From Deltaproteobacteria bacterium (GTDB lineage: Bacteria > Desulfobacterota > Desulfobacteria > Desulfobacterales > Desulfosalsimonadaceae): a stretch of 28,119 nt of DNA. Below the pieces are notes generated by a model. It saw nothing but the letters and a program-made list of their open reading frames with translations. It searched no databases and was not told where the DNA came from. This document shows, in pieces, positions 8,480 through 18,046 of this stretch. How positions within the stretch are numbered: position 1 is the first letter of the stretch; the number at the start of each line of letters is the position of its first letter. Where the stretch lies: the NCBI GenBank assembly GCA_024280875.1, contig JAJRPH010000087.1:1-28119 (forward strand), read 5' to 3'. The position numbers and the translations under genes were made by a program.

Positions 8480-8557
8480 GGGGGCGTAGCTCAGTTTGGT
8501 TAGAGCGCCGGCCTGTCACGCCGGAGGTCGCGAGTTCGATTCTCGTCGCTCCCGCCA
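8480..8557 (+). tRNA. tRNA-Asp(GTC); integration target
   Basis: Anticodon arm CCGGC-CTGTCAC-GCCGG, acceptor GGGGGCG/CGCTCCC, ends GCCA. 78 nt. Confidence 0.98.
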
Positions 8558-8560
8558 TAA
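8511..8560 (+). repeat. Left att direct repeat (3' half of tRNA-Asp plus TAA)
   Basis: 49/50 identical to 17997-18046. Confidence 0.97.
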
Positions 8561-8567
8561 TAAAAAC

Positions 8568-8601
8568 AAGGACTTAGAGAGTTTTTCTAAGTCCTTTTTT
8601 T
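8568..8601 (+). terminator. Island-supplied terminator for the tRNA-Val/Asp transcript
   Basis: AAGGACTTAGA / TCTAAGTCCTT stem followed by a T run. Confidence 0.8.
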
Positions 8602-8659
8602 ATGCCCAAAATTTCATACCCCACACCATACCCCACATTATTAGATTATTTTTGGGCAT
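8602..8659. repeat. 10-bp inverted repeat enclosing tandem CATACCCCACA repeats (arm-type-like sites)
   Basis: ATGCCCAAAA (8602-8611) / TTTTGGGCAT (8650-8659). CATACCCCACA at 8615-8625 and 8627-8637. Confidence 0.8.
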
Positions 8660-8785
8660 CACTCTTTTTTTACTCTCAGACTTTCAGATAAAGCGCCTCC
8701 ATTTCCAAATTTACTCTTTTCCCATATATAGTATGTTTCGAAAGAACCCACACTACATAAAGATTCACGCTCAAATCAACAGAGT

Positions 8786-15113: not shown

Positions 15114-17782
15114 ACAAAATCGCAACCTCCATCAAAAACCGTTTGAGTCTGCGCCCTCCGCAAGCCGAAAGTTTGAATATCCTGACGGAACTTGCCGACA
15201 AGCTGGCGCTGACTAAAAATGTTGATCTGCCGTCCGAGCTTGAAAAAGTCAAAACCAAATACCCCACATGTACGGATTTTGAGCGGGATTTCCCGTCGCT
15301 GTGTTTTGCCCTTGCCACGGGGGTGGGCAAAACCCGGCTCATGGGCGCGTTTATCACCTACCTTTTTTTGGCAAAAGGATTTAGAAATTTCTTTGTACTT
15401 TCGCCGAATCTGACAATTTACGAAAAGCTGATCACAGACCTTTCGGAGCCGAATAACCCCAAATATGTATTTAACGGGATCGGTGAATTTGTGCATCAGC
15501 GTCCCCGGATTATTACCGGTGATAATTACAAGGATTTTCGTCAATCACTGATGTTTGACAAATCTGAAATCAATATCAGCCTGTTTAATATTTCAAAAAT
15601 CAATGCTGAAACCCGAGGCAACGCGATTCCCCGGATTAAGCGAATGTCCGAAGTATTGGGCGAACCGTATTTCAATTATCTGGCAGGTCTGGAGGATCTG
15701 GTCTTATTGATGGATGAATCCCACCACTATCGGGCGGCCCGGGGCTTGCAGGTCATTAATGACCTTAAACCGGTCCTGGGCATAGAACTGACCGCCACTC
15801 CGCAAGTTGAACAGCGCGGCAACGCCATCAAGTTTAAAAATGTCGTGTATGAATATTCACTGGCAAAAGCCATAACAGACGGGTTTGTCAAAGAACCGGC
15901 CGTCGCCACCCGCAAAGATTTCGATCCGACACATCATTCAGCCGAAGAAGTTGACAGAATCAAACTGGAAGACGGCATCCGCCTGCATGAAGATACCAAG
16001 GTGGCCCTTGATATTTATTCACGAGACGCCAGAGTCCACGCCGTTAAACCGTTTGTGCTGGTGGTTGCAAAAGACACCCGGCATGCCGCCCAAATAAAAG
16101 ACCTGATTGTTTCAACGTCATTTTTTGAAGGATATTATGCGGACAAGGTCATGGAAATTCATTCCAATCAAAGGGGCGGAGAAAAAGAGGAAAACATCGC
16201 ACTGCTTATTTCTCTGGAGAATCCGGACAACGTCATTGAGATCGTCATTCATGTAAATATGCTCAAAGAAGGATGGGACGTCACCAATCTGTATACCATT
16301 GTTCCGCTTCGCACCGCTGCTTCTCAAACCCTTCGGGAACAGACCATCGGCCGGGGACTCCGGCTGCCATATGGGAAACGGACCGGAAGCGACAAAGTAG
16401 ACAAATTGACCATTGTGGCTCATGACCGGTTCCAGGAAATTGTGGATGAAGCCAACCGGCCGGATTCCATTATCCGCAAGGAAAATATCATTGAAATTGA
16501 TCCTGAGGAATTGGCGCAGCAAAAAGAAGTCGTCACCGCTGTTTCAACGATTGACCAGAAAATCCTGGATGAACAGGTAAGGATTGAAACTATTGTCGAA
16601 CCCGAAAAAAAACAAAACGCCCAAATCAGCCTGGATTTGCAGAAAACCATTCTTTCCACCCTTCCTGAATTAAATACATCAGTCAAAAACATCCAGGACC
16701 TGACACGATCGGAAATTAAAGTCATTGCCGTTGAAAAGATCAAACAGAAAATCTTCAGTTCTCCCCAGAAAGTCCTGTTTGCCCAGCAGATGATTAAAGA
16801 AGTTGAAGACGCCTATGACGCAATGGTTCATGATTTTGTGGCAAACATTATTGAAATTCCGAGGATTACCATTCAGCAAAGTGAAGATATCCGGTCCGGT
16901 TTTCATGATTTTGATCTGGATGTTAAAAATTTGAATTATCAACCGGTATCCGAAGAAATTCTGGTGAAAAAACTGCGGGAACAGGAAAACAGCATCGACA
17001 TTGTGATCGGCAAAGGGCGGATCACCCCGGATCGCCTGGATAATCTCATTGTGAACGAACTGATTAATTTTCCGGAAATTGATTATGATGTTTGCGCGGA
17101 TCTGCTTTTTCAATTAGCCGGGCAGTCAATTGATAAATTTAAAATCTATCTTGATGATGAACGGATGACGAATGTCGTTCAGTATCATAAAAGAGAAATC
17201 GGGCAATATATTTACGCTCAGATGATGGCGCATTTTTATTGCGAGACCCCGACATTTCAGGCGCCCGTCGTTAAACCGTTTACCCGAATCGAGGAACACA
17301 ACTTTTCAAAGTATTCCAAAGACAGCATCCACCATTATACCGAAACCATCGTGCCGACCAACGCCATTCCGAGCAAGGTGTTTTCCGGTTTTAAACGGGC
17401 CTGCCATACCTTATATAAATTTGATTCAAAAACAGAAAAAGATTTTGCCGTTATTCTGGAACAGGATAACGCGGTGCTCAAGTGGCTGCGCCCGGCCGGA
17501 AACCAGTTCCATATTTACTGGAAACACAACACCAAACAATATCATCCGGATTTTGTGGCGGAAACCGCCGGCACCATCTACCTGATTGAAACCAAAAAGG
17601 AGAAAGATATTGATACGGCCGAAGTCCGGGAAAAAGCGCAGGCCGCCCTTACCTATTGCCGACACGCCACCGAATTCACCACACAGAACAACGGCAAGCC
17701 ATGGAAATACGTATTAATCCCCCATAATGCGGTTCTAACTAATATGGGCTTTGATACGTTGGTAAAGAATTTTGAATTTTAA
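15110..17782 (+). CDS. res: Type III restriction endonuclease/helicase subunit
   Basis: ATGVGKT, DESH, ELTATP, EGWDV, QTIGRGLR helicase motifs. C-terminal 'YHPDFVAE...LIETK' PD-(D/E)xK nuclease motif is intact. Confidence 0.93.
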   Translation: MNKIATSIKNRLSLRPPQAESLNILTELADKLALTKNVDLPSELEKVKTKYPTCTDFERDFPSLCFALATGVGKTRLMGAFITYLFLAKGFRNFFVLSPNLTIYEKLITDLSEPNNPKYVFNGIGEFVHQRPRIITGDNYKDFRQSLMFDKSEINISLFNISKINAETRGNAIPRIKRMSEVLGEPYFNYLAGLEDLVLLMDESHHYRAARGLQVINDLKPVLGIELTATPQVEQRGNAIKFKNVVYEYSLAKAITDGFVKEPAVATRKDFDPTHHSAEEVDRIKLEDGIRLHEDTKVALDIYSRDARVHAVKPFVLVVAKDTRHAAQIKDLIVSTSFFEGYYADKVMEIHSNQRGGEKEENIALLISLENPDNVIEIVIHVNMLKEGWDVTNLYTIVPLRTAASQTLREQTIGRGLRLPYGKRTGSDKVDKLTIVAHDRFQEIVDEANRPDSIIRKENIIEIDPEELAQQKEVVTAVSTIDQKILDEQVRIETIVEPEKKQNAQISLDLQKTILSTLPELNTSVKNIQDLTRSEIKVIAVEKIKQKIFSSPQKVLFAQQMIKEVEDAYDAMVHDFVANIIEIPRITIQQSEDIRSGFHDFDLDVKNLNYQPVSEEILVKKLREQENSIDIVIGKGRITPDRLDNLIVNELINFPEIDYDVCADLLFQLAGQSIDKFKIYLDDERMTNVVQYHKREIGQYIYAQMMAHFYCETPTFQAPVVKPFTRIEEHNFSKYSKDSIHHYTETIVPTNAIPSKVFSGFKRACHTLYKFDSKTEKDFAVILEQDNAVLKWLRPAGNQFHIYWKHNTKQYHPDFVAETAGTIYLIETKKEKDIDTAEVREKAQAALTYCRHATEFTTQNNGKPWKYVLIPHNAVLTNMGFDTLVKNFEF

Positions 17783-17828
17783 AAAGTATTAAATCATCTT
17801 TTCCTCGAATGTCTTTTTTGTGCTGGCA

Positions 17829-17879
17829 TGAGGGGTATCCTTTGTTAAGGAATTTGGGGAATTTTCTCTATACCCAACA
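17829..17879. repeat. Degenerate copies of the ATACCCCACA motif near the island right end
   Basis: Minus strand ATACCCCTCA (17829-17838) and ATTCCCCAAA (17853-17862). Plus strand TATACCCAACA (17869-17879). Confidence 0.55.
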
Positions 17880-17996
17880 CATTTTATGAAAATCAAGGCA
17901 ATTTCATATAAACCAGAATAAACACTAAAACAGAATATACTTTATAATTAATAGGTTTAGGATATACAGATAAAAGCAAGTAAATATATCCCCCCA

Positions 17997-18046
17997 GCCT
18001 GTCACGCCGGAGGTCGCGAGTTCGAGTCTCGTCGCTCCCGCCATAA
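17997..18046 (+). repeat. Right att direct repeat (displaced 3' half of tRNA-Asp)
   Basis: GCCTGTCACGCCGGAGGTCGCGAGTTCGAGTCTCGTCGCTCCCGCCATAA. Single difference is G18026 vs T8540. The D arm and 5' acceptor strand are missing, so it is not a tRNA. Confidence 0.97.

What the first reader, a model, noticed from the sequence alone, without database searches (positions are those of the whole stretch)
8511..18046. Intact-ended tRNA-Asp island with no integrase: possibly mobilised in trans
Seen: a 50-bp att duplication starting in the anticodon arm. Four long genes fill nearly all of the interval. The gaps (about 315, 335, 155 and 215 bp) hold no recombinase ORF I can recognise. Established: tRNA-targeting islands with anticodon-to-3'-end repeats normally encode a tyrosine integrase beside one att. 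Inference: either the integrase was cleanly deleted and the defence cargo is now fixed, or this is a minimal non-autonomous element that borrows an integrase from a helper.
Basis: partly seen in the sequence, partly recalled or inferred. Interest (0 to 1): 0.72.

Follow-up and report, generated by a model that had tools for sequence, protein, structure and literature searches.

The report
Decayed tRNA-Asp island with integrase stub
This is the remnant of a small mobile element that inserted into the tRNA-Asp gene, later lost its integrase (only 7 codons remain) and its replication genes, and left a phage-defence cargo fixed in the chromosome; this kind of decay is common.

Summary
tRNA-Asp (8480-8557) is followed 9.5 kb later by a 53-bp copy of its 3' part (8508-8560 vs 17994-18046, 2 mismatches). 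Between them lie SoFic, a DrmD-like SNF2 helicase, and type III Mod and Res. No recombinase ORF is present.

The island is not integrase-free by design. A tandem ATACCCMACA motif at its left end led to intact relatives in the same bacterial family. These are 8.7-13.7 kb tRNA-inserting elements with a 388-399 aa tyrosine integrase, a Toprim/DUF3987 primase and a small-terminase homologue. They carry the same kind of motif pair at both ends.

Aligned to them, window 17809-17829(-) encodes MPAQKRH, the first 7 codons of that integrase. It sits at the expected distance from the arm motif and the core. Homology stops there, 26 nt from the Res stop codon.

The two repeat mismatches fit a crossover in the anticodon loop. 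The distal fragment, its terminator and the spacer match a relative's empty site. The proximal T-loop variant is seen only in the window.

No cognate integrase or primase is in the 84%-complete MAG, and no attP junction is in the JGI metagenome contigs.

Verdict: a decayed, CIME-like defence island. Rescue by a helper integrase remains possible, but nothing supports it.

The parts
8394..8469 (+). tRNA-Val(TAC), first gene of the Val-Asp tRNA pair downstream of lon
   Evidence: ARAGORN. The Lon-Val-Asp order is conserved in relatives.
8480..8557 (+). tRNA-Asp(GTC), a hybrid gene: native 5' part, with the 3' part from the anticodon loop onward supplied by the element. It is the only tRNA-Asp in the MAG.
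   Evidence: ARAGORN. Its T-loop reads TTCGATT, a variant seen in none of the ~30 relatives' genes; nearly all read TTCGAGT, as the distal fragment does, and a few read TTCAAGT or TTCGCGT.
8508..8560 (+). attL core repeat (53 bp). The inferred crossover lies within 8511-8539, which contains the anticodon loop.
   Evidence: mismatch pattern against the distal copy and against relatives
8568..8603 (+). Element-borne terminator hairpin plus T-run that now ends the tRNA operon
   Evidence: Terminator scan. It is 96% identical, through 8625, to the tRNA-Asp 3' flank of relative G024. A hairpin in the same position sits at the attL ends of elements in tRNA-Met and tRNA-Glu.
8616..8637 (+). Tandem ATACCCCACA pair with 12-nt spacing; candidate P' arm-type integrase-binding sites
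   Evidence: The same pair, in the same place relative to the tRNA end, occurs in integrase-bearing elements of relatives. It is the only such cluster in the MAG.
8816..8851 (-). 16-pair hairpin plus T-run just downstream of fic; a likely fic terminator
   Evidence: terminator scan
8877..9998 (-). SoFic-type Fic protein (373 aa) with an intact HPFLDGNGRLGR motif
   Evidence: Pfam Fic_N + Fic; PADLOC SoFic at 1.5e-114; motif read from the translation
10336..13245 (+). DrmD-like SNF2 helicase (969 aa), first gene of the SNF2-Mod-Res cassette
   Evidence: Pfam SNF2-rel_dom + Helicase_C; PADLOC DrmD at 4.8e-214. Full-length homologues sit next to Mod and Res in about 50 of 80 loci from many phyla.
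13401..15113 (+). Type III Mod methyltransferase (570 aa)
   Evidence: Pfam N6_N4_Mtase; PADLOC MTase_III at 6.7e-185
15110..17782 (+). Type III Res subunit (890 aa)
   Evidence: Pfam ResIII; PADLOC REase_III at 2.3e-177; 84% identical to a Desulfosudis MAG protein
17809..17829 (-). Integrase stub: ATG plus 6 codons (MPAQKRH). The frame then diverges and stops after 11 codons, at 17794.
   Evidence: DNA alignment to the integrase 5' ends of G002, G317 and G421 (MPTQKRH / MPKQERH). An IUPAC pattern built from the three relatives alone hits only here in the window, against 0 in 100 shuffles, and twice in the whole MAG. The nhmmer right-end profile has its single hit in the MAG at 17880-17806.
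17829..17879 (.). Remains of the P arm: one exact motif at 17870-17879(+) and a degenerate inverted copy at 17829-17838(-). Intact relatives have a tandem pair here.
17994..18046 (+). attR core repeat: an element-type CCAGCC, then the displaced native tRNA-Asp 3' half
   Evidence: The T-loop reads TTCGAGT, as in nearly all relatives.
18053..18089 (+). Native tRNA-Asp terminator, now orphaned, followed by the native spacer to the FHA gene
   Evidence: Terminator scan. It aligns with the empty site in relative G007 (Val-Asp-terminator-FHA) at 78.5% over 177 aligned columns.

Best explanation
A small integrative element inserted into tRNA-Asp by site-specific recombination in the anticodon loop. 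Its family shows phage-satellite-like features: a tyrosine integrase at one end, a Toprim/DUF3987 primase-helicase and a small-terminase homologue. The attP carried a replacement tRNA 3' half, its own terminator and a tandem ATACCCCACA arm-site pair. These now form attL and keep the only tRNA-Asp gene functional. The native 3' half and terminator were pushed 9.5 kb downstream and form attR. Later, one or more internal deletions or replacements removed the integrase after codon 7, together with the primase and other core genes. What remains is the defence cargo (SoFic and an SNF2-associated type III R-M cassette) between two att sites. The island cannot excise by itself and is effectively fixed. 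Shown here: the repeats, the mismatch pattern, the empty site, the arm motifs with their geometry, the integrase stub, and the absence of any recombinase. Inferred: the order of events, that the motifs bind the integrase, and that the cargo was already aboard before the integrase was lost.
For: (1) The core repeat starts in the anticodon arm. tRNA-Asp fragments in G005, G036, G009, G040 and G027 start at the same TGTCAC.
(2) The two mismatches flank the anticodon loop and sort as expected. The distal copy carries TTCGAGT, as nearly all relatives do. The proximal TTCGATT is unique to the window. The distal CCAGCC is not tRNA-like.
(3) G007 has tRNA-Asp, terminator and FHA with no island, and it aligns to window 17994-18162.
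(4) The tandem ATACCCMACA motif occurs in 8 of 58 genomes of the family, against 1 hit for the control pattern. There it lies 60-76 nt past a tRNA 3' end, or 25-37 nt upstream of the start codon of a 388-389 aa integrase. G317:C9 is a complete 8.7-kb example with a 49-bp exact att repeat. G421:C17 has the motif pair plus a tRNA-Asp fragment. G036 has the same geometry with a different motif and a 54%-identical integrase at tRNA-Asp.
(5) Window distances match: tRNA end to arm 59 nt, ATG to arm 41 nt, arm to core 130 nt.
(6) The integrase stub MPAQKRH lies at 17809-17829(-).
(7) Intact relatives carry integrase, primase and a TerS-like gene, and G036 also carries type I R-M cargo.
(8) The cargo genes are full length against homologues.
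Against: The stub is only 21 nt. The genome-wide nhmmer E-value is marginal (0.098), and part of that score comes from the arm motif that was used to find the relatives. The order 'cargo first, integrase loss later' is not shown; the R-M cassette could have replaced the core genes in a single recombination. Binding of the motifs by an integrase is inferred from position and recurrence only. Synteny downstream of tRNA-Asp varies within the genus, so the 'empty site' rests on one relative (G007), whose contig starts inside tRNA-Val.
Confidence: 0.8

Rival explanations
1. The island is a working non-autonomous hitchhiker (CIME-like, or a satellite of a satellite). Its att core and arm sites are still used by a cognate integrase supplied in trans by an incoming element of the same family. 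It would then excise alone or in tandem with the helper.
For: The core repeats are intact apart from the two attP/attB differences, and the left arm pair is perfect. Integrases of the family, including one at tRNA-Asp with the same motif (G421:C17), circulate in related genomes. At 9.5 kb the island falls within the size range of intact members, 8.7-13.7 kb. G005:C28 holds a second integrase-less unit, fic alone, between two tRNA-Asp fragments, as expected from tandem accretion.
Against: No cognate integrase or primase is in the MAG. The attR signature is unique to this genome among 401 genomes of the order. No attP or second attR was found in the JGI metagenome contigs. The right arm keeps only one of the two tandem motifs. 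No excisionase candidate is present. An integrase stub is what decay leaves behind, not what a designed minimal element would carry.
Confidence: 0.12
2. The integrase was not simply deleted. The SNF2-Mod-Res cassette, itself widely transferred, landed in a resident element and replaced its core genes in one illegitimate or homology-assisted recombination event.
For: Cassette homology to the nearest relative (L093) ends at 17777. That is within about 30 nt of the point where integrase homology ends, near 17809. The cassette is found in many phyla, often beside tRNA genes and mostly with no integrase within 10 kb.
Against: No transposase, repeat or other junction signature marks the cassette borders. 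The outcome cannot be told apart from cargo-then-deletion with the data at hand. In G036 an R-M cargo sits inside an intact element of the family.
Confidence: 0.3
3. The duplicated tRNA half does not come from site-specific integration. It would instead be a leftover of a tandem tRNA-Asp gene, or of homologous recombination between tRNA loci.
For: All tRNA-Asp terminators in this family share an A-rich lead and an AAGG hairpin, so the two flanks are 79% alike over 96 nt.
Against: The repeat starts at the anticodon arm, as in six other fragments. Arm motifs and an integrase stub sit at the expected distances. The MAG has only one tRNA-Asp gene.
Confidence: 0.02

Closest known systems
CIMEs (cis-mobilizable elements), e.g. 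CIME(L3catR3) of Streptococcus thermophilus, as defined in ICEberg 2.0 (PMC6323972)
   Same: A genomic island that has lost its integration and transfer genes but keeps attL and attR. It derives by deletion from an autonomous integrative element, and a related incoming element could in principle rescue it.
   Different: The parent here looks like a small integrase/primase/TerS element rather than a conjugative ICE. The right arm is partly degenerate. No mobilisation has been shown and no helper was found.
Phage satellites of the PICI / P4-like kind (integrase at one end, primase-replicase, small terminase or capsid-redirecting genes, 8-15 kb, often carrying defence genes). The comparison rests on my own knowledge of those families.
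   Same: Intact relatives (G317:C9, G036:C2) have a terminal tyrosine integrase, a Toprim/DUF3987 primase-helicase and a small-terminase homologue. They measure 8.7-13.7 kb, insert in tRNA genes, and one carries R-M cargo.
   Different: No regulator, excisionase or capsid-remodelling genes were identified and no helper phage is known. The window island keeps none of the core genes except 7 integrase codons.
Classical tRNA-targeting tyrosine-integrase islands and prophages with core and arm-type sites (lambda / P4 integrase paradigm; my own knowledge)
   Same: The att identity runs from the anticodon loop to the tRNA 3' end. The element restores the tRNA 3' half. Short repeated motifs lie on both sides of the core, next to the integrase promoter.
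   Different: The element also supplies a terminator for the tRNA operon. The integrase is reduced to a stub.
SoFic and type III R-M with an associated DrmD-like SNF2 helicase (PADLOC models; SoFic papers PMC12249575 and bioRxiv 10.1101/2022.05.11.491447)
   Same: Strong full-length HMM matches; the Fic catalytic motif is present; SNF2-Mod-Res is a conserved three-gene cassette in many phyla.
   Different: The other DISARM genes (drmA/B/C) are not in the island. Function was not tested here. The cargo is the subject of a separate finding.

Membership tests
tRNA-targeting tyrosine-integrase integrative element | Direct repeat of the tRNA 3' part (anticodon loop to 3' end) bounding the island | tested here: met
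   8508-8560 vs 17994-18046, 2 mismatches
tRNA-targeting tyrosine-integrase integrative element | Integrase gene next to one att site | tested here: not met
   Only a 7-codon stub at 17809-17829(-). No PF00589 or HMM hit.
tRNA-targeting tyrosine-integrase integrative element | Arm-type repeated motifs on both sides of the core | tested here: met
   ATACCCMACA at 8616/8628 and at 17870, plus a degenerate copy at 17829. The geometry is shared with integrase-bearing relatives. Binding itself was not tested.
tRNA-targeting tyrosine-integrase integrative element | An empty site exists in a relative | tested here: met
   G007:C54 has Val-Asp-terminator-FHA. This is a single relative, and its contig starts inside tRNA-Val.
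CIME (cis-mobilizable element) | Lacks integration and transfer genes | tested here: met
CIME (cis-mobilizable element) | Retains intact attL and attR | tested here: inconclusive
   The core repeats are intact and the left arm pair is perfect, but the right arm has 1 of 2 tandem motifs.
CIME (cis-mobilizable element) | Mobilised after accretion with a related autonomous element | not testable with these tools
   No helper in the MAG. No attP or second attR in the collections searched.
PICI-like phage satellite (parent family) | Integrase + primase/replicase + small terminase in an 8-15 kb tRNA-inserted unit | tested here: not met
   Met by relatives G317:C9 and G036:C2. The window island has none of these genes.
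PICI-like phage satellite (parent family) | Induction and packaging by a helper phage | not testable with these tools
   No helper is known. The nearest IMG/VR integrase relative is only 41% identical.
SoFic defence protein | Fic_N + Fic domains with the HxFx(D/E)GNGRxxR motif; full-length match to the SoFic model | tested here: met
   PADLOC PDLC03963 at 1.5e-114 over residues 6-367; HPFLDGNGRLGR in the translation
Type III restriction-modification | Adjacent Mod (N6_N4_Mtase) and Res (ResIII helicase-nuclease) genes | tested here: met
   the reading frames overlap by 4 nt, 15110-15113

The most novel reading that the evidence does not exclude
The stub-bearing island is still a functional third-order hitchhiker. 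It would be a defence cassette with satellite-type att and arm sites and a satellite-sized length. An incoming integrase/primase/TerS element of the same family would excise it, alone or in tandem, and spread it, so defence genes would travel on the recombination sites of a phage satellite without paying for any mobility gene.
Probability: 0.08. Interest if true: 0.55.

Novelty: new member of a known kind. Interest (0 to 1): 0.25.

Why it matters
The missing integrase reflects decay, not design, and the remnant is too short for protein searches to see. It was found only through the arm-site motif and DNA alignment to intact relatives.

The work also outlines a family of small tRNA-inserting elements in this bacterial family. 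They carry an integrase, a Toprim/DUF3987 primase and a TerS-like gene. They bring their own tRNA 3' half, a terminator and specificity-matched arm motifs, and they carry R-M or defence cargo.

It suggests why attL ends outlive the elements: they become the working 3' end and terminator of an essential single-copy tRNA gene. None of this is conceptually new.

Tried and rejected
- Protein-level searches for a recombinase in the window all found nothing and could not have seen a 7-codon stub: PF00589 six-frame, tblastn with five integrases, a custom HMM with --max, and Pfam on gap frames at E<=10.
- tblastn for remnants of primase, TerS-like and other core genes in the gaps gave only noise.
- I looked for a degenerate internal att fragment between fic and SNF2, which would show a composite island. 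None was found at up to 6 mismatches in 35 nt, and there was no DNA similarity to the G005 or G006 fic flanks.
- The integrases next to tRNA-Asp in G005 and G006 proved to be a different family (about 26-30% identity to the G317/G002/G036 type). They have other arm motifs, so they are not the cognate type.
- At first I read the G024/G010/G002 tRNA-Asp flanks as 'native'. After the same hairpin position and arm motif turned up at tRNA-Met and tRNA-Glu element ends, I read them as attL-like scars of the same element family. This is an inference.
- The order-wide pattern search with 1 mismatch returned mostly native tRNA genes. Only the exact-match result is used.
- A second MAG hit to the integrase-start pattern, on C330, is a chance match inside another frame, with no tRNA or arm motif nearby.
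- GC content does not set the island apart: 0.434 against 0.441 for the genome.
- The organism's name is not given by the tools.
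Full report
OBSERVATION. The window is a whole 28.1-kb contig (C187) of an 84%-complete, 559-contig MAG. ARAGORN finds tRNA-Val at 8394-8469 and tRNA-Asp(GTC) at 8480-8557. A direct repeat links 8508-8603 to 17994-18089. Its first 53 bp (8508-8560 / 17994-18046) differ at only two positions. These are 8510 G vs 17996 A, on the 5' strand of the anticodon stem, and 8540 T vs 18026 G, at T-loop position 59. Each copy is followed by its own predicted terminator.

The interval holds four genes. 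They are a SoFic-type Fic protein at 8877-9998(-), a DrmD-like SNF2 helicase at 10336-13245, a type III Mod at 13401-15113 and a type III Res at 15110-17782. The gaps measure 319, 337, 155 and 211 bp.

NO RECOMBINASE ORF. The six-frame PF00589 search of the MAG gives 15 hits, none on this contig. Three further searches found only noise: tblastn with integrases taken from relatives, a custom tyrosine-recombinase HMM run with --max on every stop-to-stop frame of 25 aa or more (best E 0.28), and Pfam on the gap frames at E<=10.

THE SITE IS AN INTEGRATION HOT SPOT. In 40 relatives, Lon-tRNA-Val-tRNA-Asp is conserved. Orphan tRNA-Asp 3' fragments occur in G005 (two), G036, G009, G040 and G027, and all start at the same TGTCAC of the anticodon loop. 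Integrases lie beside the tRNA or a fragment in G005, G006 and G036. G027 has an integrase pseudogene there.

G007:C54 shows the empty state, with tRNA-Val, tRNA-Asp, a terminator and the FHA gene. It aligns to window 17994-18162 at 78.5%. So the distal fragment, its terminator and the spacer are the native 3' end of the gene.

Nearly all relatives' tRNA-Asp genes have TTCGAGT in the T-loop, as the distal fragment does. None has the TTCGATT of the window's intact gene. CCAGCC at the start of the distal copy is not tRNA-like. The two mismatches therefore bracket a crossover within 8511-8539, which contains the anticodon loop. This is what tyrosine-integrase insertion into a tRNA gene produces (established knowledge).

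ARM MOTIFS LEAD TO THE PARENT FAMILY. At 59 nt past the tRNA end lies a tandem ATACCCCACA pair (8616, 8628). One exact copy (17870) and one degenerate inverted copy (17829) lie 130-170 nt before the distal core.

I tested it against relatives. The tandem pattern occurs in 8 of 58 genomes of the bacterial family, against one hit for the reversed control. The hits fall in two positions. Some lie 60-76 nt downstream of a tRNA 3' end (tRNA-Met in G317 and G020, tRNA-Glu in G421). Others lie 25-37 nt upstream of the start codon of a 388-389 aa tyrosine integrase (G317, G002, G421:C17).

G317:C9 is a complete 8.7-kb element. It has tRNA-Met, a 49-bp exact att repeat and the motif pair at both ends. 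Its genes are an integrase, a Toprim/DUF3987 primase-helicase, a DEAD-box helicase and a small-terminase homologue.

G421:C17 has an integrase (cut by the contig start), then the motif pair, then a tRNA-Asp fragment. That is the window's own target.

G036:C2 is a 13.7-kb element at tRNA-Asp. Its integrase is 54% identical to that of G317. It has a primase, a TerS-like gene and a type I R-M cargo. Its geometry is the same but the motif differs (ATTTCCAACCT).

The window's distances fit these elements: tRNA end to arm 59 nt, ATG to arm 41 nt, arm to core 130 nt.

THE INTEGRASE STUB. Aligned to the integrase-bearing right ends, window 17809-17829(-) reads ATGCCAGCACAAAAAAGACAT, which is MPAQKRH. 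G002 has MPTQKRH, and G317 and G421 have MPKQERH, at their integrase starts. Beyond codon 7 the similarity stops and the frame closes after 11 codons. The Res stop codon lies 26 nt further on.

An IUPAC pattern built only from the three relatives matches the window once, at this spot, with 0 matches in 100 shuffles. In the 7.25 Mb of both strands of the MAG it matches twice. The other hit is a chance match inside a coding frame.

An nhmmer profile of the three right ends has a single hit in the MAG, at 17880-17806(-). Its genome-wide E-value is 0.098. That is marginal on its own, but the hit falls in the 211-nt gap where it was expected a priori.

The right arm retains one of the two tandem motifs.

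NO HELPER, NO CIRCLE. No integrase or primase of this family is in the MAG; the best hits are Xer-like at 25-31% identity. The exact attR signature occurs only in this genome among 401 genomes of the order.

CARGO. SNF2-Mod-Res is a conserved cassette in many phyla. In about 50 of 80 loci a full-length SNF2 gene is present with Mod and Res. The best match is a Desulfosudis MAG, at 81%, 67% and 84% identity. Few of these loci have an integrase within 10 kb. DNA homology to the nearest relative ends at 17777. All four cargo genes are full length, and the Fic catalytic motif is present.

MECHANISM. An element of this integrase/primase/TerS-like family integrated at the anticodon loop of tRNA-Asp. 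Its attP supplied the new tRNA 3' half, a terminator and the P' arm. Because this is the only tRNA-Asp gene in the MAG, attL is under selection whatever happens to the rest of the element.

Internal deletion, or replacement by the R-M cassette, then removed the integrase after codon 7 together with the core genes. The result is a fixed defence island with CIME-like anatomy, using the definition in PMC6323972.

Rescue by a cognate integrase in trans remains mechanistically possible. No data support it, and the half-lost right arm weakens it.

VERDICT. The 'deleted integrase, fixed cargo' branch is supported. The 'mobilised in trans' branch is unsupported but not excluded. This is a new member of a known kind, of low to moderate interest.

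Noticed in passing
L079 (G005:C28) 637-2440: A 1.76-kb unit holds only a Fic gene (978-2114, minus strand, 37% identical to the window's Fic). It lies between two tRNA-Asp 3' fragments (637-680 and 2397-2440), with an ATACCCAACA / ATGCCCAAC pair at 813-833. This is a second integrase-less, att-bounded unit at the same kind of site and looks like tandem accretion.
   Followed up: partly
L089 (G024) 2563-2629; L087 (G010) minus strand near 19590-19795; L092 (G002) 1745-1790: These relatives' tRNA-Asp genes are followed by the same GGACTTAGAGA hairpin as window 8568-8596. G024 and G010 also have ATACCCCAC-like motifs there, but housekeeping genes follow (PEPCK, YceI, MenF/MenD). They may be attL scars that persist because they terminate the tRNA operon.
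   Followed up: partly
L164 1983-7598: In a Gammaproteobacteria MAG, a Fic gene 62% identical to the window's sits between Mod and Res of the homologous type III cassette. So SoFic-type Fic and this R-M cassette associate repeatedly. L105 and L127 have weaker Fic-like matches beside the cassette.
   Followed up: no
window 13815-14413: The middle of Mod has no DNA homology to the nearest cassette (L093), while both flanks are 75-81% identical. This is presumably the target-recognition domain, which would give a different specificity.
   Followed up: no
L094, L116, L134, L139, L157, L162: In several unrelated phyla the SNF2-Mod-Res or Mod-Res cassette lies within a few hundred bases of a tRNA gene. 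This suggests repeated carriage on tRNA-targeting elements.
   Followed up: no
window 8786-8851: The repeated TTTGTGGATCACTTTT units downstream of fic include a 16-pair hairpin plus T-run on the fic strand (8851-8816), scored as a terminator. The extra upstream copy remains unexplained. The core TGATCCACA is one mismatch from a DnaA box.
   Followed up: partly
L085 (G027:C118) 1949-2700: tRNA-Asp, a 33-nt fragment 300 nt downstream, and an integrase C-terminal remnant with an in-frame TAG. This is another decayed element at this site in a different family of the order.
   Followed up: no
L081 (G005:C66) 6134-11741: A different element sits at tRNA-Asp. It has an integrase (351 aa, only about 26% identical to the G317 type), an AEP-TOTE primase domain protein and a TrwB-like coupling protein. 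Its own tandem motif, ACTGAGTGAAA, lies after the terminator. Each integrase type seems to have its own arm motif.
   Followed up: partly
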